NCBI GenBank assembly: GCA_964387675.1
Contig: CAYLWL010000002.1
Location: forward strand, 22,514-86,513
Reading direction: 5' to 3'
DNA from: an uncultured Candidatus Saccharibacteria bacterium
Lineage (GTDB): Bacteria; Patescibacteriota; Minisyncoccia; UBA6257; 2-01-FULL-56-20
Length of the DNA: 64,000 nt
Shown here: one piece after another, positions 3,745 through 59,665 of the stretch
How positions within the stretch are numbered: the stretch's first letter is position 1
How the letters are laid out: every line of letters starts with the position of its first letter
Notes under the pieces: generated by a model
What the model was told of the DNA's origin: nothing
Seen by the model: only the letters and a program-made list of their open reading frames with translations
Database searches by the model: none
Position numbers and translations under genes: made by a program

Positions 3745-3783
3745 TTATTAGAATCTAGAATCTAGAAAATAGAAAGTAGAATT
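3745..3783. repeat. TAGAA-family hairpin arm (left arm flanking four-helix-bundle gene copy 1)
   Basis: ttattagaatctagaatctagaaaatagaaagtagaatt. The inverted partner is at 4147-4188. Confidence 0.7.
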
Positions 3784-4128
3784 ATGAGTAATACAAAATC
3801 TTTTAAAGATTTAATTGTATGGCAGAAAGCGCGGAGTTTGGCGGTTGCGGTATATAAACTTTCTGAACAATTTCCTAACGTAGAGCTATATGGCCTAACA
3901 AGTCAAATGCGTCGCGCGGCCATTTCCATTTCTTCCAACATCGCCGAAAGTTACCACCGTTTTCATAGAAAAGAAAAACAGCAGTTTCTTTCTATCGCTT
4001 TTGGCTCCGGCTCGGAACTAGAAAGCCAAATAGAAATCGCCAAAGTTTTATTTCCAAAGCTGGATTATCGAGAAAGTGAAGAATTATTGTTGGAGGTTAT
4101 GAAAATACTAAATAATTTTCTACAATGA
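3784..4128 (+). CDS. four-helix-bundle protein (23S rRNA intervening-sequence protein / DGR Avd-like family), copy 1
   Basis: 114 aa. WQKARSLAVAVYKLSEQFPNVELYGLTSQMRRAAISISSNIAESYHRF matches the S23-ribosomal/IVS four-helix-bundle family. Flanked by inverted TAGAA repeats. Confidence 0.8.
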   Translation: MSNTKSFKDLIVWQKARSLAVAVYKLSEQFPNVELYGLTSQMRRAAISISSNIAESYHRFHRKEKQQFLSIAFGSGSELESQIEIAKVLFPKLDYRESEELLLEVMKILNNFLQ

Positions 4129-5558
4129 TCAAAATCGAAAAATTAAAAATAGTTCTTCTACTTTCTATTTTCTATTTTCTACCTTCTCGTAAGCGGGGGC
4201 AGTCCACGATTGAGATTTTGATCGCGGTGACGATTCTGACCGCGGTTTTGACGAGCGCCGCCGCGCTCATTTTCGGCAGCCAATCGCTCTCGGTTGATTC
4301 CGCGGAAAGTAATCAGGCATTGCGTCTCGCCGAACAGGGCTTGGAGGGCGTCAAAAATCAGGCCAGATACGACTTCCTCAACATCGTTTCGAGCACCGTG
4401 ACGCAGGGTGAGTTCACGAAAAACATCATTGTCTCGAATGTAGGCGCGAACACGAAGCAAGTGGTAAGCCGCGTTACGTGGAGCACCGATCCGCAGAGAA
4501 CCCAGCAAGTCGAACTCGTGACGCTTGTGACGGATTGGCGCGGCGTGCAGGACACCGGCGGAGACACGGGGAGCGGCGGCGGTGGCGGCGGCGCTTCTGG
4601 CGACTGGTGCAATCCCGCAACCCTCGGCACGATCGATTTGGGATCGGGTGAGTCGGCGACGGGCATCGATGTGATCGCAACAACGACCTATATGACGGCA
4701 GTCGCTTCCTCCCCGAGCAAGAAGGACTTTTTCATCGTTGATGTTTCCAATTCCAGCACTCCTTCCATTATCGGGTCCATAGACACCGGGCCGGGACTCA
4801 ATGCTCTGGACGTGACGGCAAACTACGCTTATGTCGCGAGCGACGACAGCTCCAAGCAATTCCAAGCCATCGACGTCAGCAACAAGACCAGCCCGGTTCT
4901 CGTTGCATCCACCACTCTTACGAGCAATTCCGCCGTTGGACGGAGTATTTTTTACCATAATCAAAAAGTATATATCGGCACGGACGACAATAGTGGAAAC
5001 GAATTCCAGATTATCGACGTGGCCACTCCCGCAACCCCCGTGATTTTGGGAAGAGCTTCTTTGGATGAAGATGTGAATTCCATTTACGTGAGCGGGAACA
5101 AGGCATATCTTGCAACATCCGATACGTCGAAAGACGTGCAGATTTTCGATGTGTCGACTTCATCCGCGCCCGCGCTTCTTGGCACGTATGACATTTCGGG
5201 TGCCGGAGAAACGAAATGGCTGTATGTGGTTGGCACGAAAATGTATGTGGGCAGAGAAACCGGAGGAGATGAACTTTATGTATTGGATATTACGAATGCC
5301 ACTTCGGTGTCGGTGTTGGGCCATAAGGCGATCGGCAAAACGGTGAACGCGATTACAGTGCGCGGCAATTACGCGTTCCTTGCCACCTCCGACCCGAACA
5401 ACGAGCTCAAGATATTCGACGTTTCCAATCTTTCAAATATCACTTCCTGCAGTAACTTCAACTTTCCCAACATCGCGACCGCCGTCGATTTCGACGCCAA
5501 TCTGGTGTACACCGCCGTGCGATCGAACGACGGCCTGCGCATCGTGACATCGCAATAA
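4125..5558 (+). CDS. prepilin-like N-terminus fused to an LVIVD-repeat beta-propeller domain protein
   Basis: N-terminal KRGQSTIEILIAVTILTAVLTSAAALIFG is a pilin-type G/x-T-x-E plus TM. A Gly-rich linker (GGDTGSGGGGGGASGD) is followed by at least six repeats of the pattern xxIxDVSNxSxPxxxG (FIVDVSNSSTPSIIGS, QAIDVSNKTSPVLVAS, QIIDVATPATPVILGR, QIFDVSTSSAPALLGT, YVLDITNATSVSVLGH, KIFDVSNLSNITSCS). These are typical of LVIVD repeats. True start codon uncertain. Confidence 0.65.
   Translation: MIKIEKLKIVLLLSIFYFLPSRKRGQSTIEILIAVTILTAVLTSAAALIFGSQSLSVDSAESNQALRLAEQGLEGVKNQARYDFLNIVSSTVTQGEFTKNIIVSNVGANTKQVVSRVTWSTDPQRTQQVELVTLVTDWRGVQDTGGDTGSGGGGGGASGDWCNPATLGTIDLGSGESATGIDVIATTTYMTAVASSPSKKDFFIVDVSNSSTPSIIGSIDTGPGLNALDVTANYAYVASDDSSKQFQAIDVSNKTSPVLVASTTLTSNSAVGRSIFYHNQKVYIGTDDNSGNEFQIIDVATPATPVILGRASLDEDVNSIYVSGNKAYLATSDTSKDVQIFDVSTSSAPALLGTYDISGAGETKWLYVVGTKMYVGRETGGDELYVLDITNATSVSVLGHKAIGKTVNAITVRGNYAFLATSDPNNELKIFDVSNLSNITSCSNFNFPNIATAVDFDANLVYTAVRSNDGLRIVTSQ
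4147..4188. repeat. TAGAA-family hairpin arm (right arm); also encodes N-terminus of the following pilin-like ORF
   Basis: tagttcttctactttctattttctattttctaccttctcg is the reverse-complement partner of 3745-3783. It translates in frame as VLLLSIFYFLPSR preceding KRG|QSTIE. Confidence 0.7.
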
Positions 5559-6648: not shown

Positions 6649-6691
6649 TTAGAAAGTAGAATTTAGAAAATAGAAAGTAGAATCTGGAAAA
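6649..6691. repeat. TAGAA-family hairpin arm
   Basis: ttagaaagtagaatttagaaaatagaaagtagaatctggaaaa. Partner at 6710-6747. Confidence 0.65.
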
Positions 6692-6693
6692 CT

Positions 6694-7191
6694 ATGAAAA
6701 ATTTAAAAACAACTTCTATTTTCTATTTTCTAGATTCTAGATTCTCGAATAAGGGTTTCACTTTGATAGAGGTCGTCATATCGGTGGCAATCATTACGCT
6801 CCTTACGGTTGCTGCCATTGTTATTCTCGATCCCGCTCGGCAGTTTGCCAAATCGAGAAACACACAGCGCTGGTCGGATGTGAATGTGATTTTGAATGCG
6901 GTTGGGCAAAACACCGTTGACAACCGCGGAACTTTTTCGTGCAGTTCCGGCGGGATTCCCACGACTACGACGAGGATGGCGTCCAGCAGTCCGAACTACA
7001 ATATCGCGCCGTGCCTTGTAGCGACCTATTTAAGCGCCTTGCCGTTCGATCCGGCAACGAGCGGCGCGAAGTGGACGAGCGTAACCGATTACGACACCGC
7101 TTATAACATCCTGCGAAACGCCACAACCGGCCGCGTGACGATTTCCGCTCCGGCGGCCGAACTTGGGGAGAGCGTTACGGTCACGAGGTAG
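6694..7191 (+). CDS. prepilin-type N-terminal cleavage/methylation domain protein (pilin)
   Basis: MKNLKTTSIFYFLDSRFSNKG|FTLIEVVISVAIITLLTVAAIVIL. Confidence 0.8.
   Translation: MKNLKTTSIFYFLDSRFSNKGFTLIEVVISVAIITLLTVAAIVILDPARQFAKSRNTQRWSDVNVILNAVGQNTVDNRGTFSCSSGGIPTTTTRMASSSPNYNIAPCLVATYLSALPFDPATSGAKWTSVTDYDTAYNILRNATTGRVTISAPAAELGESVTVTR
6710..6747. repeat. TAGAA-family hairpin arm encoding pilin leader
   Basis: aacttctattttctattttctagattctagattctcg translates as TSIFYFLDSRFS before NKG|FTLIEV. Confidence 0.65.
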
Positions 7192-15227: not shown

Positions 15228-15235
15228 AGAAAAAA

Positions 15236-15332
15236 GAAATGAGATATGAGAAACGAGGAACGAAAAGGAGTTCCCGATTGCACGAAACGTTCGTAGTTCC
15301 CAATCTCTCATTTCTAATTTCTCATCTCTAGA
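15236..15332. repeat. ATGAGA-family ORF-less hairpin element
   Basis: gaaatgagatatgagaaacgaggaacg ... caatctctcatttctaatttctcatctctag inverted arms around a 38-nt loop. Confidence 0.75.
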
Positions 15333-18512: not shown

Positions 18513-18621
18513 TTTACACCCCTCTATATTACTTTTTGCGCTGCGTGTATTCTATGTGTTTGAAAATAATTTGTCAAACGTCGCGCGGAGATGGTATTAT
18601 GTTTGAGAAAATGCCCGGGAG

Positions 18622-18685
18622 TCCTGCCTGCCGGCAGGCAAGGCCTGTCTGCCGGCAGGCAGGCCTGCCTACCGGCAGACAGGGA
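18622..18685. repeat. GC-rich palindromic repeat (GCCTGCCGGCAGGCAGG units)
   Basis: cctgcctgccggcaggcaaggcctgtctgccggcaggcaggcctgcctaccggcagacaggg. Same family at 54726-54768. Confidence 0.75.
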
Positions 18686-18811
18686 AAACTCGATTTCGCT
18701 AGGGGCATTTCAATTAAAATTTCACCATTAGGTTGTTGCTTAAAAAGCAACAAAGTCAGTAAATCAAAATTATCATCGAGTCTCTACTACTTTCTATTAC
18801 CTATTACCGGG

Positions 18812-25874: not shown

Positions 25875-26228
25875 ATGAACATGTTGAGCAAGGACGGCAT
25901 TTTGAAATTCAGGATCGTTTACTCAATGTTTCTTTTTGATTTCGCTTTGGTTCTCGGCGGTGTGCTGTGGGCTTATTTCTCTCTACGAAACGCGAGCGGG
26001 CCGGTGGTCATCCACTTTAACGACATTGCCGGCATCAACCGTATCGGAAGTTTCTGGGACGTGGTTGGAATCGGCGTAACGGGCCTTGCCATAGTCGTTC
26101 TTAACTTATTTATAGCTCTCGAGTTCGAAAAAAGAGACCGATTTTGGGGGAAGCTGGCGGCCGCTTTCACGGTCGTTGTGAGCATCTTGATTTTTATAGC
26201 GTTAGCGGCTATCATATCTGTAAACTAA
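25875..26228 (+). CDS. hypothetical small membrane protein
   Basis: 117 aa with 3 predicted TM helices. Confidence 0.4.
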   Translation: MNMLSKDGILKFRIVYSMFLFDFALVLGGVLWAYFSLRNASGPVVIHFNDIAGINRIGSFWDVVGIGVTGLAIVVLNLFIALEFEKRDRFWGKLAAAFTVVVSILIFIALAAIISVN

Positions 26229-26309
26229 GAAAGTAGAAATGAGATATGAGAAATGAGGAACGCGTGCCCCTAGCCCCTAATCTCTCATTTCTAATTTCTC
26301 GTCTCTAAA
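26226..26309. repeat. ATGAGA-family ORF-less hairpin element
   Basis: aagaaagtagaaatgagatatgagaaatgaggaacg cgtgcccctagcccc taatctctcatttctaatttctcgtctctaaac. Confidence 0.75.
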
Positions 26310-27817: not shown

Positions 27818-28234
27818 TTGCCATTAGCCGCAACTATGGACCAACCCTCTCAATCATTTGAACATGAAGCCCTCGAGGCCGATATTAAAGCCCTTGCGCA
27901 GGAAGTCGAGAAACATCGCGAACTTCCGGAGAATAAAGGCGTGAGCGGGCAGGAGTTGTTAAAGAAAGCAATCCGTGCCTTGCCGCCGGTTTCAACCGCG
28001 ACAGAGCCCGTCTCAAAACCCTCACGGCCGAGTCCGCTCCCGCAGTACGCGCAAAGCGCCTCGCCGGAAGTCCGTCTTGAAATCGAGTACTTGATTGACT
28101 TGGCTTTCCACGCCGGTATCGGTAAGGCCTCGGCGGAAGCGAAGAAATCCCCCGATTTCGTGCAAGACGCTTTTCATGACGCCTTGGCCGGAAAACTGTA
28201 CCCGATGTTTCAGGAGAGGGGAATACTTAAATAG
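27818..28234 (+). CDS. hypothetical protein
   Basis: 138-aa ORF, acidic helical. Preceded by a ctttgctctttgcc repeat. Confidence 0.35.
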   Translation: MPLAATMDQPSQSFEHEALEADIKALAQEVEKHRELPENKGVSGQELLKKAIRALPPVSTATEPVSKPSRPSPLPQYAQSASPEVRLEIEYLIDLAFHAGIGKASAEAKKSPDFVQDAFHDALAGKLYPMFQERGILK

Positions 28235-28265
28235 AGATTAGAGATGAGAAATGAGATATTAGGAT
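28222..28265. repeat. ATGAGA-family hairpin arm (left arm flanking four-helix-bundle copy 3)
   Basis: tagagattagagatgagaaatgagatattaggatatgagc. Confidence 0.7.
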
Positions 28266-28637
28266 ATGAGCAATGAAAAATTTATTTTTGAAGATTTAAG
28301 GGTTTATCACGGGGCATTAAAACTTTCAGTGGAGCTTACTAAGCTGGCTACGAAATTTCCACACGACTATTCGAGAATACAAAATCAATTAATTGGAGCA
28401 GCTATTTCTGTTCCCTTGAATCTCGCCGAGGGTTCTGGAAGGGAAAGCGATAAGGATAAAAAGAATTTTTATAGAATTAGTAGATCATCTATTTTTGAAC
28501 TCGTGCCTCTTATTGATATAATTTACGAACTAGGACTCATAGGAAGCGACAAGCGAGATGAAATTCGTCACGAAGTTGCGGAACTTTCGCGAATTGTTTC
28601 CACCTTAATGAAAAACAAAGTTTCTCAAAAGTCCTAA
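28266..28637 (+). CDS. four-helix-bundle protein (23S rRNA IVS protein / Avd-like), copy 3
   Basis: MSNEKFIFEDLRVYHGALKLSVELTKLATKFPHDYSRIQNQLIGAAISVPLNLAEGSGR. Confidence 0.8.
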   Translation: MSNEKFIFEDLRVYHGALKLSVELTKLATKFPHDYSRIQNQLIGAAISVPLNLAEGSGRESDKDKKNFYRISRSSIFELVPLIDIIYELGLIGSDKRDEIRHEVAELSRIVSTLMKNKVSQKS

Positions 28638-28662
28638 TTTCTCATTTCTAATATCTCATCTC
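28625..28662. repeat. ATGAGA-family hairpin arm (right arm)
   Basis: cctaatttctcatttctaatatctcatctctaaat. The same right arm recurs at 59630-59665 and 36765-36780. Confidence 0.7.
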
Positions 28663-28667
28663 TAAAT

Positions 28668-31040
28668 ATGTTTATTTACTTCCTTATGGGTTTTATCGTA
28701 AGCGCCGTTTTGGGCGTGAGTATTTATTTTTTGGCACGGCACATCGTTCGAGGCAAGCTTTTCGCGTCTTTGGGAATGACGCTCTTGCTCATCAAGATTC
28801 CCCGCGAAACCTCCGCCCAAAACGCGCCGGAAAAAGATTTCAAAACGGAGATTAATCGATTCGAGCAGCTTTTGGGCGGGCTCGCTTCTTTGAAGAAGCC
28901 GGTTGTGTTTGAGGCGGCGGTGCCCCACGTCGGCGAGGAAATCCATTTTTATCTCGCGGTGCCCAAAAAAATGATGGAGGTAGCCATAAAACAAGTCCAG
29001 GGTTTGTGGAACGGAGCGAGCGTCGACATCGCCCCTGATGACTTCAATATCTTTAACGCCAATGGCGCGACCTCGGCCGCCTATATTATGCAGAAAGAAA
29101 ACTATGCCTTGCCGATTCGGAGTTACTTGGAACTTGGGCTCGATTCGTTCGCGTCCGTTATCGGCGGCTTTTCGAAGGTTGCCGAAATTGGCGAAGGCGC
29201 GGCGCTGCAAATTGTTCTGCGGCCCGGCCCGAAAGACGCCAAGAAAAAAATCCACGGTTTCATCCAATCCCTCAAAAAGGGCGAGCCGCTCAAAAAAGTG
29301 TTCGGCCACGAATTTCCGGTGAGTTTCTCGGAGATCGGCCAGGCCCTGAATCCCAAGAAAGAGGAAGAGAAGAAAGAGAAGATCGTCGACGAAGAGGCGG
29401 TGAAGGCGCTCGAAATGAAAATAACAAAGCCCTTATTTGAGGTGAACGTGAGGGTGGTATGCTCGGCGGGTTCCAAATTCCAGTCGGATGATATTTTGGA
29501 CGGTATCACCGCGGGTTTCAATCAATTCGGCAGTCCGAGGAGGAATGAGTTCAGGGTGGTAAAACCGAGAAACCCAAACACGGTGGCTCGCCAGTTCATA
29601 TTCCGGAATTTTGAGTCCTCGCAAAGAATGCTACTCTCTGCCGAGGAAATCGCGAGCTTCTATCATTTTCCGACGGCGCTCACCGAAACGCCTCGAATCA
29701 AATGGCTCAAGTCCAAAGAAGCCCCGCCGCCCGCAAACTTGCCCGCGAGCGGCATCCAGATAGGAGAGAGTTTATTCCGCGGCCAGACGAAGCCCGTATA
29801 TATAACACACGAGGATAGGCGGCGGCATGTGTATACCATCGGTCAGACGGGTACGGGAAAATCCACGCTTTTGGGCAATATGATTATCGAAGACATCAAG
29901 CAGGGGAGGGGCGTGGCAATCATCGATCCTCACGGCGATCTGGTGGGCAACGCCTTGGGTTTTATTCCGAAAGACCGGATTGACGACTTGATTTATTTCG
30001 ACCCCGCGGATCTTGAAAGGCCGCTTGGACTCAACATGCTGGATTATAATTTTGATCGTCCCGAAGAGAAGACATTCATCGTGAACGAGATGCAGAGTAT
30101 CTTTAACAAACTGTTCCCACCGGAGACGATGGGCCCGATGTTCGAGCAGTATATGAGGAACGCGCTTTTGCTTTTAATGGAAGACATGCCCAACGAACCG
30201 GCGACGCTCATTGAGGTCCCCAGGGTTTTTACGGACGCAGAGTACCGCGCGCGCAAACTCGAGCGGATTCAGAATCCCGTGGTCATCGATTTTTGGGAAA
30301 AAGAAGCGGTGAAGGCGGGAGGCGAAGCGTCTCTTGCCAATATGACGCCGTATATCACCTCTAAATTCAACAACTTCATTTCGAACGACTATATGCGGCC
30401 GATTATCGGCCAGGCGAAGTCGGCGTTCAATTTCAGAAAGGTGATGGATGAAGGAAAGATTTTACTCATCAATCTTTCCAAGGGAAGGATTGGAGACATC
30501 AACGCCGGACTTCTCGGCATGGTGTTCACCGGAAAGATTTTGATGGCCGCTTTGTCGAGAGTGGACATAGCCGAGGTTGAGAGGCGGCGTGACTTTAATC
30601 TCTACATAGACGAATTCCAAAACTTCACGACGGATTCCATCGCCACGATTCTCTCTGAGGCAAGAAAATACAAATTGAATCTGACGATGGCGCACCAGTT
30701 CATTGCCCAGCTCACGGAAAAAATCCGCGACGCGGTTTTCGGCAACGTCGGTTCGCAGATTGTGTTTCGCGTCGGCGTGCAGGATGCGGAGTTTTTGGTG
30801 AAGCAGTTCGAGCCGGTGTTTAGTCAGAACGATTTATTGAATATCGACAACTTGAACGCCTACGCGAAGATTTTAATCAACGGCGAAACGTCAAAACCCT
30901 TTAACATTAAAATTCTTACCACTTCCTGGGGAGCGGGCGACAAAGACATGGCCCAAAAGCTAAGGGAATACTCAAGGATGAAATACGGCATGGATCGGCA
31001 GGGGATCGAGGCGGAGATTTATAGGAGGTTGCGAGAGTAA
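28668..31040 (+). CDS. membrane-anchored P-loop ATPase of the VirD4/TraD/TraG type IV coupling-protein-like family
   Basis: N-terminal TM (FIYFLMGFIVSAVLGVSIYFL). HVYTIGQTGTGKSTLLGNMI (Walker A), then AIIDPHGDLVGNALGFIPKDRIDDLIYFDPAD, which parallels the TrwB/VirD4 block (vIvDPnGD...ilnP.d), and LYIDEFQNF (Walker B). Confidence 0.55.
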   Translation: MFIYFLMGFIVSAVLGVSIYFLARHIVRGKLFASLGMTLLLIKIPRETSAQNAPEKDFKTEINRFEQLLGGLASLKKPVVFEAAVPHVGEEIHFYLAVPKKMMEVAIKQVQGLWNGASVDIAPDDFNIFNANGATSAAYIMQKENYALPIRSYLELGLDSFASVIGGFSKVAEIGEGAALQIVLRPGPKDAKKKIHGFIQSLKKGEPLKKVFGHEFPVSFSEIGQALNPKKEEEKKEKIVDEEAVKALEMKITKPLFEVNVRVVCSAGSKFQSDDILDGITAGFNQFGSPRRNEFRVVKPRNPNTVARQFIFRNFESSQRMLLSAEEIASFYHFPTALTETPRIKWLKSKEAPPPANLPASGIQIGESLFRGQTKPVYITHEDRRRHVYTIGQTGTGKSTLLGNMIIEDIKQGRGVAIIDPHGDLVGNALGFIPKDRIDDLIYFDPADLERPLGLNMLDYNFDRPEEKTFIVNEMQSIFNKLFPPETMGPMFEQYMRNALLLLMEDMPNEPATLIEVPRVFTDAEYRARKLERIQNPVVIDFWEKEAVKAGGEASLANMTPYITSKFNNFISNDYMRPIIGQAKSAFNFRKVMDEGKILLINLSKGRIGDINAGLLGMVFTGKILMAALSRVDIAEVERRRDFNLYIDEFQNFTTDSIATILSEARKYKLNLTMAHQFIAQLTEKIRDAVFGNVGSQIVFRVGVQDAEFLVKQFEPVFSQNDLLNIDNLNAYAKILINGETSKPFNIKILTTSWGAGDKDMAQKLREYSRMKYGMDRQGIEAEIYRRLRE

Positions 31041-43555: not shown

Positions 43556-43572
43556 AATCTTTTTCTGATTCA

Positions 43573-43934
43573 GACCCCATCTCAAAAATAATCATCATAG
43601 TGCTTCAAGTGCTTATTTTTGAGATAGGGTCTCCCTTCGACCTTTCTTTTCTTTCGGTCCATTGACTTCGTTGAGGAGGCGATGCCGAGAATGAATCTAG
43701 GCATCGCCTGAAGTGAGTGGGGGATGGGAGGACTAACCTCCATTGCCGGGTGTTGCCGATCGAAGTTCTGCCAGAGTTTCCGGATTAAGAGTCCGGGCTT
43801 GTGACAGCACCGCCGTTCACCCAAGCACCGCAACCGTGGCCTTTGGTCACGGGGGACGCGCGATTTTTATCAAGGACAGCGCTTATTGTCCCTCACACCC
43901 CACACATTATGAGGATTTCTCCTCAACGAAGTCA
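43573..43934. other. non-coding structured element between rpsP and KH gene: local hairpin plus a 273-bp unit bounded by 17-bp inverted repeats
   Basis: Hairpin accccatctcaaaaata...tatttttgagatagggt (43573-43632). Terminal inverted repeat ttgacttcgttgaggag (43662-43678) / ctcctcaacgaagtcaa (43918-43934). Several internal hairpins. Confidence 0.5.
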
Positions 43935-54703: not shown

Positions 54704-54725
54704 GTGAGTGAATGCGCGATTAGCT
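54704..54725 (+). pseudogene. tRNA 5'-half-like fragment (acceptor plus D arm)
   Basis: GCGCGATTAGCTCAGTGGCAGA, immediately followed by a GC palindromic repeat. Matching 3' half at 54961-54985. Confidence 0.4.
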
Positions 54726-54768
54726 CAGTGGCAGACCTGCCTGCCGGCAGGCAGGTCTGCCTGCCGGC
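54726..54768. repeat. GC-rich palindromic repeat (same family as 18622-18685)
   Basis: cctgcctgccggcaggcaggtctgcctgccggcaggcagggcg. Confidence 0.75.
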
Positions 54769-54828
54769 AGGCAGGGCGCTTGTTGACCCCGCACCTTCGG
54801 AGGCGTATTATTTTAGGAATCGATGCAA

Positions 54829-54901
54829 GCGCGTGTAGCTCAGTGGTTAGAGCGCGTCGTTGACATCGACGAGGCCCGTGGTCCGATTCCACGCACGCGC
54901 A
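54829..54901 (+). tRNA. tRNA-Val (anticodon GAC)
   Basis: GCGCGTG TA GCTC AGTGGTTA GAGC G CGTCG TTGACAT CGACG AGGCC CGTGG TCCGATT CCACG CACGCGC A. All stems Watson-Crick. Confidence 0.85.
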
Positions 54902-54960
54902 CGGTTTTTAATTGGAACATACACGCCTCCAAAGTTGACGGGGCAAGCACGCAAGAGGCC

Positions 54961-54985
54961 GCAGGTCCGATCCCTGCATCGCGCA
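54961..54985 (+). pseudogene. tRNA 3'-half-like fragment (T arm plus acceptor 3' strand)
   Basis: GCAGG TCCGATC CCTGC ATCGCGC A. The acceptor strand is complementary to GCGCGAT at 54704-54710. Confidence 0.4.
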
Positions 54986-55106: not shown

Positions 55107-55751
55107 ATGATCCAGGGTCTTCCTGCGCCACGGGTGATTATCTGCGATATGGGGAATGTTCTCGTGAACGTAACTCCTCCGGATCAAACCGCTTTTTTTG
55201 CCAAGTGCGCCGTTTCGGCCGAAGAGATCAAAAGGTTTTTTACCGCCGATGAAGAGTTTTTCGAGTACGAGCGAGGGCATACTCCAAGGGAGAGATTTTT
55301 CGAGATCGTTCAAGAGAAACTCGGATACCGCGGGGATTTTCGGCAATGGGTCGATGATTTCTGCGACATCTTCAGCTTGAACCGAGAAGTGTACGACTTG
55401 CTTTTGGGAGACGTGAAAATCAATAACCAAGTGGAGATTTGGCTATTGTCGAACCTGAACGAGCTTCACTACGAGTTCCTGTTAAAGCGCTGGCCAGGAG
55501 TTTTCTCGAGTTGTCGAAGGGTTTTTCTTTCTTTCGAGCTTGGGATGAGAAAGCCGGAACCGGCGATTTGGGAATTGATTTTGCGAACCGAGGGCGCCAA
55601 GAGAGAGCGGTGTCTGCTGATAGATGACCTGGAAGCGAACTGCCGCGGCGCGTTCGATGCCGGCATGTCAAGCGTCATGTTCCTCGGCATCCTCAAATTG
55701 CGCGAACAGCTTGAGAAATTCGGACTCAATCTTGAAAACCGCGAGGAATAG
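55107..55751 (+). CDS. HAD-superfamily hydrolase-like protein (variant motif I)
   Basis: VIICDMGNVLV (DxG variant of DxD motif I), LIDDLEANCRGAFDAGMSSVMF (motifs III/IV). Confidence 0.5.
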   Translation: MIQGLPAPRVIICDMGNVLVNVTPPDQTAFFAKCAVSAEEIKRFFTADEEFFEYERGHTPRERFFEIVQEKLGYRGDFRQWVDDFCDIFSLNREVYDLLLGDVKINNQVEIWLLSNLNELHYEFLLKRWPGVFSSCRRVFLSFELGMRKPEPAIWELILRTEGAKRERCLLIDDLEANCRGAFDAGMSSVMFLGILKLREQLEKFGLNLENREE

Positions 55752-55765
55752 AAAGGGCAACTGCT

Positions 55766-55797
55766 CCGGGCTTTCGACCCGGAGCTTTCTTTTTTCA
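55766..55797 (+). terminator. rho-independent terminator after HAD-like gene
   Basis: ccgggctttcgacccgg followed by agctttcttttttc. Confidence 0.65.
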
Positions 55798-55806
55798 ATC
55801 AATTTA

Positions 55807-56082
55807 TTCTAGAACCCATCTCAAAATACCGCGAGCCGCGATAGAGGCCAATGTCCGCGAGGCCGCGGAGCGAGGACGAAGGTGTACCTTGTGGTACTCC
55901 GAGTCCGAAGCGACAATGGCCTAGTGGAAATTGGTCCTATCCCGAAGGGTTTTCGCTATTTTCTCCGCCCGCTGCGTTACGGCTCGGTCGCGGTGCATAA
56001 AGCACGGCTCTCTCGCCAAGCCTTGCGGATCGGAGAAAATAGCTGAAAACGCGACTTCGTGGTATTTTGAGATGGGTTCTAG
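55807..56082. mobile_element. 276-bp non-coding MITE-like element with 22-bp perfect terminal inverted repeats, next to tRNA-Ile
   Basis: tctagaacccatctcaaaatacc (55808-55830) / ggtattttgagatgggttctag (56061-56082). Nested IR cgctattttctcc/ggagaaaatagc inside. No ORF. Confidence 0.55.
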
Positions 56083-56105
56083 TAAGGAACGGAAGCAAAG
56101 TTTTT

Positions 56106-56177
56106 GGGTGTGTAGTTCAGTGGTAGAACGCTGTCCTGATAAGACAGAGGTCGATGGTTCGATTCCATCCACACCCA
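56106..56177 (+). tRNA. tRNA-Ile (anticodon GAT)
   Basis: GGGTGTG TA GTTC AGTGGTA GAAC G CTGTC CTGATAA GACAG AGGTC GATGG TTCGATT CCATC CACACCC A. Confidence 0.85.
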
Positions 56178-56224
56178 CAAAATCAAACCCAAATTTTACT
56201 GCGGGGCGCAATAATAACGAGGAG

Positions 56225-56698
56225 ATGAAAAAATACATAAATTGGTTTTGGAGATGGTACGAAGGCAACTTGCGTCTCAATATCGGGATTGCCGCCGGTA
56301 TTTTTGTGTGGCAGTTGATACATTTGTTCTGGCTCACTCTCGACGTCGTCACCGCGCGATTATTTTCAGTCGCGCTTTTCCACATAACGGGAGTATTGCA
56401 ATACGCGATTATTGCCGTTGATTATGCGGAGATGCCGGCAATCATTACCGTGTCGCTGGTGTATATAAACGAACTGCGGAAAGGTAAAGACGTAAAAAGA
56501 AATATATTATTTCTCGTTCTTCTCAATTCCCAGTGGCTTCACTTGTTTTGGATAACAGACGAGTTTGTGCTGGAGATTTTGAGGGGCGGCGGAGCTGTTT
56601 TGCCGTTGTGGCTGGCGTGGATCGCGATACTGATAGATTACCTTGAACTGCCGGTGATTTACGACACGATAAGGAAGCTTCTTAAGTCCCGCGGTTAA
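56225..56698 (+). CDS. hypothetical polytopic membrane protein
   Basis: 157 aa from MKKYINWFWRWY, Trp-rich, 4 TM helices. The upstream part of the tracked ORF overlaps tRNA-Ile and is rejected. Confidence 0.4.
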   Translation: MKKYINWFWRWYEGNLRLNIGIAAGIFVWQLIHLFWLTLDVVTARLFSVALFHITGVLQYAIIAVDYAEMPAIITVSLVYINELRKGKDVKRNILFLVLLNSQWLHLFWITDEFVLEILRGGGAVLPLWLAWIAILIDYLELPVIYDTIRKLLKSRG

Positions 56699-59566: not shown

Positions 59567-59665
59567 TTAGAAATGAGAAATGAGACATGAGACATGAGGA
59601 GCAAGAAACGAGACGTTGGCGATGCTGAACGACCTAATTTCTCATTTCTAATATCTCATCTCTAT
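59567..59665. repeat. ATGAGA-family ORF-less hairpin element between rsmH and ftsL
   Basis: ttagaaatgagaaatgagacatgagacatgagg...gaacgacctaatttctcatttctaatatctcatctcta. Confidence 0.75.

What the first reader, a model, noticed from the sequence alone, without database searches (positions are those of the whole stretch)
55807..56082. MITE-like 276-bp element with 22-bp perfect TIRs inserted beside tRNA-Ile
tctagaacccatctcaaaatacc / ggtattttgagatgggttctag perfect inverted termini, nested internal IRs, and no coding capacity. It ends 24 nt before tRNA-Ile. tRNA-proximal insertion is typical of mobile elements. The terminal tctaga also ties it to the TAGAA family.
Basis: seen in the sequence. Interest (0 to 1): 0.5.

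Follow-up and report, generated by a model that had tools for sequence, protein, structure and literature searches.

The report
IS5-family MITE beside tRNA-Ile
The flagged 272-bp hairpin-forming sequence is a small non-coding "hitch-hiker" transposon (a MITE) whose ends match those of an abundant IS5-family insertion sequence, so it is a real but ordinary piece of selfish DNA in a Candidatus Liptonbacteria genome.

Summary
Window 55809-55834 and 56057-56082 form a 26-nt inverted repeat, of which 22 nt are perfect. The interior folds into two long hairpins (z = -10.9), and nothing matches Rfam.

The MITE interpretation is supported and can now be made specific. The element is 268 bp (55812-56079), flanked by a TA duplication at 55810-11 and 56080-81.

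- **Parent element.** The same 16-18 bp termini (GAACCCATCTCAAAAT) bound 832-833-bp elements in soil metagenomes. These encode a 257-aa DDE transposase (NCBIfam "IS5 family transposase", 227 bits). An annotated Leptospira weilii IS5-family element has nearly the same ends. Size, GA ends and the 2-bp repeat fit the IS427 group.
- **Spread.** The metagenome scan stopped at its 120-locus limit. 66 unique complete copies were recovered, and 48 have TA on both sides. The target consensus is TNAY|TA|RTNA.
- **Empty sites.** In two other genomes, removing the element plus one TA restores the start of a gene exactly (trpS, ATP synthase alpha/beta family). Syntenic relatives (HAD protein 45% identical) lack the element upstream of tRNA-Ile.
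- **Autonomy.** No transposase lies in the 64-kb window. The copy looks like a single relic mobilised in trans.

The proposed links to the "TAGAA" repeats and to tRNA targeting are not supported. Verdict: a new member of a known kind, of low to moderate interest.

The parts
55810..55811 (.). Left copy of the TA target-site duplication
   Evidence: TA directly outside both termini. 48 of 66 unique complete family members have TA on both sides.
55812..55830 (.). Left terminal inverted repeat. The family core is GAACCCATCTCAAAAT (55812-55827). Perfect complementarity runs to 55830, and with one mismatch to 55834.
   Evidence: The same core ends 832-833-bp transposase-bearing elements L079, L114, L132 and L148 and the Leptospira weilii IS5-family element L164.
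55840..55941 (.). Internal hairpin A (about 100 nt)
   Evidence: Minimum-free-energy fold. Homologous arms with compensatory changes in L119, L087, L021 and L032.
55942..55948 (.). Small central hairpin or junction (CCGAAGG) between the two arms
   Evidence: An equivalent short GC hairpin sits at the same place in L021, L119 and L087.
55949..56050 (.). Internal hairpin B (about 100 nt)
56061..56079 (.). Right terminal inverted repeat (GGTATTTTGAGATGGGTTC). It contains TGA (56068-56070), which in the autonomous IS is the transposase stop codon, and an outward-facing ATG (56072-56074).
   Evidence: In L114, L079 and L148 the transposase ORF ends at this TGA.
56080..56081 (.). Right copy of the TA target-site duplication. 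The inferred pre-insertion site is TTATTC-TA-GTAAGG (a CTAG site).
43572..43632 (.). Possible degenerate mini-relative. It is a 61-nt hairpin whose arms (GACCCCATCTCAAAAATAA / TTATTTTTGAGATAGGGTC) differ from the family core by 2-3 bases, with no intact TA flanks.
   Evidence: Minimal two-repeat members of 44-62 bp exist elsewhere in the family.

Best explanation
Window 55810-56081 is a non-autonomous DNA transposon (MITE) derived from an insertion sequence of the IS5 family, most like the IS427 group.

It keeps only the roughly 16-22 bp terminal inverted repeats that the DDE transposase recognises. The interior is a 230-bp palindromic filler that folds into two long hairpins.

A transposase supplied in trans inserted it at a TA inside a CTAG site, in the short spacer between the terminator of a HAD-hydrolase gene and tRNA-Ile. 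The insertion duplicated the TA.

Shown here: the shared termini with transposase-bearing elements, the TA duplication, the target consensus, empty sites in other genomes, dispersed homologous copies, and the absence of a transposase in the window.

Inferred: mobilisation in trans, the present immobility of this copy, and the absence of any host function beyond putting a very stable hairpin into any transcript that reads from the HAD gene towards tRNA-Ile.
For: 1. **Anatomy.** A 26-nt inverted repeat (22 nt perfect), TA on both sides, no coding capacity and no Rfam family.

2. **Autonomous partner.** Four independent 832-833-bp elements (L079, L114, L132, L148), each in different flanks and each TA-flanked, carry the same termini. 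They encode a 257-aa protein with Pfam DUF4096 + DDE_Tnp_1 and NCBIfam NF033580 'IS5 family transposase' at 226.8 bits against a cut-off of 110. An annotated IS5-family element on a Leptospira weilii plasmid has the ends TAGAACCCATCTCAAAAAC ... GGTATTTTTGAGATGGGTTATA. IS427-group elements are 832-865 bp with 2-bp direct repeats in all but one case (PMC3281130, Table 2).

3. **Dispersal.** An 18-mer scan of 185,579 species genomes gave 21 loci. Seven extend to ...CTA, against a 1/64 chance per locus. The metagenome scan stopped at its 120-locus limit.

4. **Family census.** There are 66 unique complete elements. Sizes run from 44 to 432 bp, plus the 832-833-bp elements and one 1,003-bp span between paired repeats. 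48 have TA on both sides. The target consensus is the palindrome T-N-A-Y|TA|R-T-N-A.

5. **Exact empty-site reconstructions.**
 - In L021, removing the element plus one TA gives ATG ACT AAA CCG CGC = MTKPRILLTG of a class-I W/Y tRNA synthetase.
 - In L019, it gives ATG GTT AAT AAG = MVNKHF of an ATP synthase alpha/beta family protein.

6. **The window's own locus.** Relatives with the same tRNA-Val / HAD / tRNA-Ile order lack the element.

7. **Homologous full-length copies elsewhere.** L119 is 72% identical, L087 69%, L021 63%. The Paceibacterota MAG SMAG_U13966 has three copies on two contigs (L032 twice, L020). L010 holds relics.

8. **No transposase in the 64-kb window** (tblastn, best E = 0.46).
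Against: - Only one full copy, plus one degenerate hairpin, is visible in the 64 kb available.
- Short-read contigs from six samples run straight through the element (five of them on into tRNA-Ile). This argues that this sequence variant is single-copy in those communities.
- The rest of the source assembly could not be searched, so multi-copy status in the host genome is untested.
- The syntenic genomes lacking the element are distant (HAD protein 45% identical). No precise empty site exists for this exact locus.
- The internal helices are conserved through compensatory changes (37 of 97 pairs). Pure junk DNA would not obviously require this, although palindromes can also be homogenised by repair.
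- One of the two TA flanks was part of the metagenome search pattern, which inflates the TA/TA count somewhat.
Confidence: 0.9

Rival explanations
1. It is a structured non-coding RNA gene, or a processed 5' leader of tRNA-Ile. On this view the long terminal stem is an RNase III-type processing stem and the two internal hairpins are functional domains.
For: - Very strong predicted structure, somewhat better on the tRNA strand: -154.5 against -143 kcal/mol.
- It has the same orientation as tRNA-Ile and lies immediately upstream of it. No promoter-like site lies between the element and the tRNA.
- The architecture is conserved with compensatory changes among five homologues.
Against: - No Rfam family matches, even at E <= 10.
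- The conserved part is the terminal 16-18 bp, identical to the ends of a transposase-bearing IS.
- Copies sit in unrelated contexts, including inside the second codon of genes.
- TA duplications flank the copies.
- The element is absent from syntenic relatives.
- The apparent excess of G.U-compatible changes in the 5' arm is explained by the parent IS, whose left end naturally has T where the right end has C.
Confidence: 0.04
2. It is a MITE of the IS630/Tc1-mariner type, the classical family that duplicates TA and prefers CTAG, rather than of the IS5 family.
For: TA duplication and a CTAG pre-insertion site in the window. Known bacterial MITEs such as RUP are attributed to IS630-type elements on the same kind of evidence (PMC2229807).
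Against: The only transposase found between these termini is IS5-family: DUF4096 + DDE_Tnp_1 and NF033580. Among the NCBIfam hits at E <= 0.001, all are transposase families related to IS5/IS4 and none is an IS630 model. The 832-833-bp size with a 2-bp repeat is the IS427-group pattern.
Confidence: 0.03
3. It is a MITE by origin that the host has co-opted. Possible roles are a transcriptional insulator or terminator between the HAD gene and tRNA-Ile, an RNase III entry site, or a provider of expression signals for the tRNA.
For: - The hairpin structure is preserved by compensatory change across diverged copies.
- The copy is fixed in six sampled communities with no sequence variation.
- Neisseria Correia elements set a precedent for RNase III processing of MITE hairpins (PMC2229807).
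Against: - No expression data exist.
- Relatives manage with a 63-nt spacer.
- A rho-independent terminator already precedes the element at 55763-55795.
- No promoter-like site was found in or after the right end.
Confidence: 0.1

Closest known systems
IS427 group of the IS5 family (e.g. IS1248, ISPaes1, ISPha1 of Paracoccus; PMC3281130). This is the parent type, not the element itself.
   Same: The autonomous elements with the window's termini are 832-833 bp with roughly 16-18 bp imperfect inverted repeats that begin GA. They make a 2-bp direct repeat and encode a DDE transposase with a DUF4096 N-terminal part. The Leptospira relative matches the query in two pieces and has an A-run at the junction, as expected for the group's frameshifted two-ORF layout.
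   Different: The metagenomic elements L079, L114 and L148 carry one uninterrupted 257-aa ORF, as reported for ISPha1. In L132 that frame is cut short by an early stop. The closest named relative found, ISDds9 of Deinococcus deserti, is only 49% identical, and its sequence shows no obvious match to these ends. The window element has no transposase at all.
Bacterial MITEs with TA-flanked inverted repeats and long stem-loops (Correia/NEMIS, RUP, ERIC; review PMC2229807)
   Same: Small, non-coding, with terminal inverted repeats and 5'-TA-3' at the termini. Transcripts would fold into long stem-loops. Copies occur in intergenic sites and occasionally fused to open reading frames.
   Different: The terminal sequence and parent IS family are different. 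At 268 bp the window copy is larger than the classical examples of under 200 bp. The family is spread across many metagenomes and MAGs labelled with different phyla, rather than confined to one genus.
IS5-family-derived MITEs (Porphyromonas gingivalis BrickBuilt, MITE293/700; Neisseria ATR from ISNme1; PMC4596501)
   Same: Non-autonomous elements assigned to a parent IS by identical or near-identical terminal repeats, with no remnant of the transposase inside.
   Different: Their termini (GAGACCTTTGCA...) are unrelated to GAACCCATCTCAAAAT, and their duplications are variable.
Rickettsia palindromic elements (RPE)
   Same: Palindromic elements tolerated inside protein-coding genes. Here, copies sit in codon 2 of a trpS-type gene and of an ATP synthase alpha/beta family gene in other genomes.
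   Different: Here the gene appears to be rescued by a start codon carried in the right terminal repeat, not by in-frame translation of the element into the mature protein. The window copy is intergenic.

Membership tests
MITE (non-autonomous bacterial DNA transposon) | Terminal inverted repeats | tested here: met
   26 nt at 96%, with 22 nt perfect. 0 matches expected by chance.
MITE (non-autonomous bacterial DNA transposon) | Small size and no transposase gene | tested here: met
   268 bp. Only short chance ORFs. tblastn of the cognate transposase against the whole window gives a best E of 0.46.
MITE (non-autonomous bacterial DNA transposon) | Target-site duplication | tested here: met
   TA at 55810-11 and 56080-81. 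48 of 66 unique complete relatives are TA/TA, and most of the others differ by one base. One TA of each metagenome hit was imposed by the search pattern.
MITE (non-autonomous bacterial DNA transposon) | Termini shared with an autonomous insertion sequence | tested here: met
   L079, L114, L132 and L148 (832-833 bp) and Leptospira L164 carry the same core termini around an IS5-family transposase.
MITE (non-autonomous bacterial DNA transposon) | Filled and empty sites | tested here: met
   Exact gene-start reconstruction in L021 and L019. For the window's locus, syntenic L011 and L012 have a 63-nt spacer without the element, but these are distant relatives.
MITE (non-autonomous bacterial DNA transposon) | Multiple dispersed copies in the host genome | not testable with these tools
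   Only 64 kb of the source MAG (GCA_016204365.1) is available, and the assembly is not in the genome collection scanned. The window holds one copy plus one degenerate hairpin. Short-read contigs argue for a single copy of this variant. At family level the feature is met: at least 120 metagenome loci, and three copies in one Paceibacterota MAG.
IS5 family, IS427 group (parent element) | DDE transposase of the IS5 type | tested here: met
   NF033580 at 226.8 bits (cut-off 110). Pfam DUF4096 83 bits and DDE_Tnp_1 61 bits.
IS5 family, IS427 group (parent element) | Length about 800-1000 bp and a 2-bp direct repeat | tested here: met
   832-833 bp with TA/TA in four independent insertions. Compare Table 2 of PMC3281130.
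IS5 family, IS427 group (parent element) | Two overlapping ORFs joined by programmed frameshifting | tested here: inconclusive
   A single 257-aa ORF in L079, L114 and L148, as in ISPha1. The Leptospira and Deinococcus relatives match in two pieces with an A-run at the junction.
IS630/Tc1-mariner-derived MITE | Termini matching an IS630-family transposase-bearing element | tested here: not met
   The transposase found between these termini is IS5-family. The TA duplication alone does not discriminate.
Any described structured RNA family (Rfam 15) | Covariance-model match | tested here: not met
   No hit in 55807-56082 at gathering score or at E <= 10.

The most novel reading that the evidence does not exclude
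The right terminal repeat of this IS/MITE family may act as a built-in translational restart cassette (…UUU UGA G AUG GGU UC|UA). The target preference TGAY|TA sometimes places the element two bases after a start codon (ATGNN|TA). In that position the original reading frame can run through the whole element, stop at the repeat's UGA (the transposase's own stop codon) and re-initiate at the AUG one base later. The protein is then rebuilt with a single extra residue. This would let the element survive inside the 5' end of essential genes. It is seen for a trpS-type gene (L021) and an ATP synthase alpha/beta family gene (L019), where the frame is open through all 87 and about 57 codons respectively.
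Probability: 0.2. Interest if true: 0.5.

Novelty: new member of a known kind. Interest (0 to 1): 0.25.

Why it matters
The result explains a conspicuous, highly structured intergenic sequence without invoking a new RNA or a new mechanism, so it closes the lead.

It has some modest wider value. An abundant IS427-type IS/MITE family with the termini GAACCCATCTCAAAAT occurs in Candidate Phyla Radiation genomes (Liptonbacteria, Paceibacterota, Saccharibacteria). These organisms have very small genomes and few recognised mobile elements.

The same termini also occur in MAGs labelled as proteobacterial and Chloroflexi, and in cultured Leptospira. The termini are a simple marker for annotating these elements. 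They also help avoid false gene calls, such as the 208-aa ORF called from the element's ATG through tRNA-Ile.

Tried and rejected
1. **Known RNA families.** Rfam at gathering score and at E <= 10 gave nothing in the element.

2. **RNA-level selection on the terminal stem.** In the first genome hits the 3' arm was always the exact one, and 5'-arm changes were C>T or A>G (G.U-compatible). I took this as RNA-level selection. I dropped the argument once the autonomous elements showed that the left end naturally reads GAACCTATC... and the right end GAACCCATC....

3. **IS630/Tc1-mariner parentage.** TA plus CTAG first suggested it. I rejected it when the transposase proved to be IS5-family.

4. **A general preference for gene starts or for in-frame fusion.** 14 of 107 ATG-bearing ends have an in-frame outward ORF of at least 100 codons, against 19 and 5 in the control frames, so there is no enrichment. 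The recurrent ATGNN|TA register is explained by the TGAY|TA target preference.

5. **tRNA targeting.** Of 9 related loci scanned for tRNAs, only L032 carries one.

6. **Closer relatives of the window locus.** Homologues of the downstream membrane protein (70% identical) sit in a different gene order, so they gave no empty site.

7. **Viral contigs.** 10 hits to the 16-mer, none extending into the family consensus.

8. **Literature.** Full-text searches for the terminal sequence found no paper.

Full report
**Observation**

The window carries a 26-nt inverted repeat with arms at 55809-55834 and 56057-56082. It is 96% complementary and the arms are 222 nt apart. The perfect 22-mer CTAGAACCCATCTCAAAATACC occurs exactly twice in 64 kb, once per strand, with none expected in shuffles.

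The region folds into a terminal stem, two roughly 100-nt hairpins (55840-55941 and 55949-56050) and a small central hairpin. The energy is -154.5 kcal/mol on the + strand (z = -10.9) and -143 on the - strand (z = -9.9). No Rfam family matches, even at E <= 10.

**Context**

All of these lie on the + strand:

| Feature | Coordinates |
|---|---|
| tRNA-Val | 54829-54902 |
| HAD-family hydrolase gene | 55107-55751 |
| Terminator | 55763-55795 |
| The element | 55810-56081 |
| tRNA-Ile(GAT) | 56106-56178 |
| 157-aa membrane-protein gene | 56225-56698 |

The source is contig JACQKV010000013.1 of a Candidatus Liptonbacteria MAG, GCA_016204365.1.

**Is it conserved with the tRNA?**

The HAD protein has few relatives in the database. 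The closest are 45% identical and keep the tRNA-Val / HAD / tRNA-Ile order.
- L011 and L012 have only 63 nt (terminator plus an AT-rich spacer) between HAD and tRNA-Ile.
- L010 has a different 355-nt spacer.

Without the element and one TA, the window's spacer would be 84 nt.

Short-read contigs from six samples are identical to the window. Five run unbroken from the HAD gene through the element into tRNA-Ile, and the sixth ends inside the element. This variant is therefore fixed and probably single-copy in those communities.

**Family**

*Genome scan.* An 18-mer from the repeat was scanned over one genome per species and hit 21 loci, against about 17 expected from my own back-of-envelope estimate of chance. 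Seven of them extend by the further bases CTA (1/64 expected each), and several have a matching opposite arm 80-430 nt away. They come from MAGs labelled Paceibacterota, Saccharibacteria, Patescibacteria, Gamma- and Betaproteobacteria and Chloroflexi.

*Census.* Pairing repeat-like sites (up to 3 mismatches to GAACCCATCTCAAAAT) gave 66 unique complete elements.
- Non-autonomous sizes run from 44 to 432 bp, most commonly 140-190 bp.
- Four elements are 832-833 bp. One further 1,003-bp span was also paired.
- 48 of the 66 have TA on both sides, and most others differ by one base. One TA of each metagenome hit was part of the search pattern.
- The pre-insertion sites give the palindromic consensus T-N-A-Y|TA|R-T-N-A.
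- The window's site is TTATTC|TA|GTAAGG, a CTAG.

**The autonomous partner**

The 832-833-bp elements (L079, L114, L132, L148) sit in four different flanks, each with TA on both sides. They encode a 257-aa protein that matches:
- Pfam DUF4096 and DDE_Tnp_1;
- NCBIfam NF033580 'IS5 family transposase', 226.8 bits against a cut-off of 110.

The transposase stop codon is the TGA inside the right repeat (TTT TGA GATGGGTTC). The left repeat differs by one base (GAACCTATC...).

An annotated IS5-family element on a Leptospira weilii plasmid is about 51% identical in protein. Its ends are TAGAACCCATCTCAAAAAC ... GGTATTTTTGAGATGGGTTATA.

Size, GA ends and the 2-bp repeat are those reported for the IS427 group of the IS5 family: 832-865 bp with a direct repeat of 2 bp in all but one element (PMC3281130, Table 2). 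The ISfinder summary of that group is from my own memory.

The transposase family is very abundant. There are 3,113 clusters at E <= 1e-20, mostly on roughly 1-kb contigs, as expected for a repeat that breaks assemblies. No trace of it lies in the window.

**Proof of insertion elsewhere**

- **L021.** The flanks read AAATGAC|TA|[element]|TA|AACCGCGC. Removing the element and one TA gives ATG ACT AAA CCG CGC..., MTKPRILLTG. This is the N-terminus of a class-I W/Y tRNA synthetase, with the Pfam match starting at residue 5.
- **L019.** The same operation gives ATG GTT AAT AAG..., the start of an ATP synthase alpha/beta family protein.
- **L017.** A gamma-glutamyltranspeptidase gene shows the same register with TC flanks.

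With the element in place, the ATG of the right repeat supplies a new in-frame start (MGS...). In L021 and L019 the frame from the original start stays open through the whole element to the repeat's TGA, one base before that ATG.

This is suggestive of termination-reinitiation, but it is not a family-wide property. In-frame outward ORFs are not enriched (14 against 19 and 5 in the control frames). The recurring register follows from the TGAY|TA target preference.

**The window's subfamily**

The whole 272 bp aligns with several other copies:

| Locus | Source or note | Identity to window |
|---|---|---|
| L119 | Contig named Hain-H14 | 72% |
| L087 | | 69% |
| L021 | | 63% |
| L032 (two copies) and L020 | Both contigs from Paceibacterota MAG SMAG_U13966 | part-length |
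| L076, L029 | Partial | |
| L010 | Two relics | |

The consensus fold is shared, and 37 of 97 pairs show compensatory change. This may reflect selection on a hairpin, as DNA or as RNA, or homogenisation of palindrome arms. I cannot tell which.

tRNA adjacency is not general. Of 9 related loci scanned, only L032 has a tRNA, and it lies next to that contig's second copy.

**Mechanism (best estimate, confidence 0.9)**

The element is a MITE of an IS427-type IS5-family element. A DDE transposase acting in trans mobilised it by binding the 16-18-bp termini, and it inserted at a TA in a CTAG site with a 2-bp duplication.

The window copy has perfect termini, no resident transposase within 64 kb and no second intact copy. 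It is probably a stranded relic.

Any effect on tRNA-Ile expression is unproven. Possible effects are a barrier hairpin, an RNase III substrate (as for Neisseria Correia elements, PMC2229807), or read-through from upstream.

**Comparison and novelty**

This is the familiar kind of bacterial MITE: terminal repeats, TA termini and long stem-loops (PMC2229807). MITEs of IS5-family parentage are already described in Porphyromonas and Neisseria, with different termini (PMC4596501).

I found no paper containing this terminal sequence, so it is a new member of a known kind.

The 'TAGAA family' link fails. The shared letters are only the TA duplication plus GAA, and the base outside the TA varies among copies.

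Noticed in passing
window 43572-43632: A 61-nt hairpin in a divergent intergenic region. Its arms (GACCCCATCTCAAAAATAA / TTATTTTTGAGATAGGGTC) are 2-3 mismatches from the MITE core repeat, and it has no intact TA flanks. It is probably a decayed two-repeat mini-element of the same or a sister IS.
   Followed up: partly
window 54714-54985: The intact tRNA-Val (54829-54902) sits inside what looks like a disrupted second tRNA-Val copy. The 5' part is GCGCGATTAGCTCAGTGGCAGA at 54714-54735. The 3' part, about 54931-54985, carries a TTGAC anticodon-loop remnant, a T-arm and the acceptor ATCGCGCA, which pairs with the 5' part. Two copies of a 20-bp palindrome follow the 5' fragment. ARAGORN does not call the outer copy.
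   Followed up: partly
window 18617-18704 and 54730-54777; L010 2896-2915; L087 about 1080-1110; L010 about 800-830: A 20-bp perfect palindrome, CCTGCCTGCCGGCAGGCAGG (and variants), recurs in tandem in the window. It is inserted in a tRNA-Ile 5'-half pseudo-copy in the related genome L010, between GGTAGAA and CGCTGTCCTG. It is also nested at the tip of a hairpin in two MITE copies. It behaves like a very small mobile palindrome, and no mechanism is known to me.
   Followed up: no
L010 2690-2975: In the relative that shares the HAD / tRNA-Ile synteny, the 355-nt spacer holds two partial 5'-half copies of tRNA-Ile upstream of the intact gene. This suggests repeated insertion or duplication events at this tRNA.
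   Followed up: no
window 3745-4192, 6651-6745, 15228-15322, 26228-26299, 28225-28671, 59569-59656: Arrays of 7-nt repeats (TAGAATC, GAGAAAT/GAGATAT and others) occur as inverted pairs that bracket short segments, about 370 nt in two cases, all over the window. They share only TAGAA with the MITE end and appear unrelated to it. Their function is unknown.
   Followed up: no
window 56072-56698: The ATG in the MITE's right repeat opens a 208-codon frame. It runs without a stop through the spacer and the tRNA-Ile gene into the 157-aa membrane-protein gene. A 208-aa protein with exactly this sequence is on record from another NCBI contig (P0127). This is most likely a chance open frame (about 51 stop-free codons, roughly 7% by my estimate) and an annotation artefact.
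   Followed up: partly
L021 1134-1403; L019 6000-6167; L017 about 156-590: Family members are inserted two bases after the start codon of a class-I W/Y tRNA synthetase gene, an ATP synthase alpha/beta family gene and a gamma-glutamyltranspeptidase gene. The right repeat supplies a replacement in-frame ATG. In the first two, the original frame stays open through the element to a TGA one base before that ATG.
   Followed up: partly
L142 5399-6365: A 53-bp mini-element and a 179-bp MITE of the family flank a roughly 700-bp segment that carries a 243-codon minus-strand ORF. This is a composite-transposon-like arrangement.
   Followed up: no
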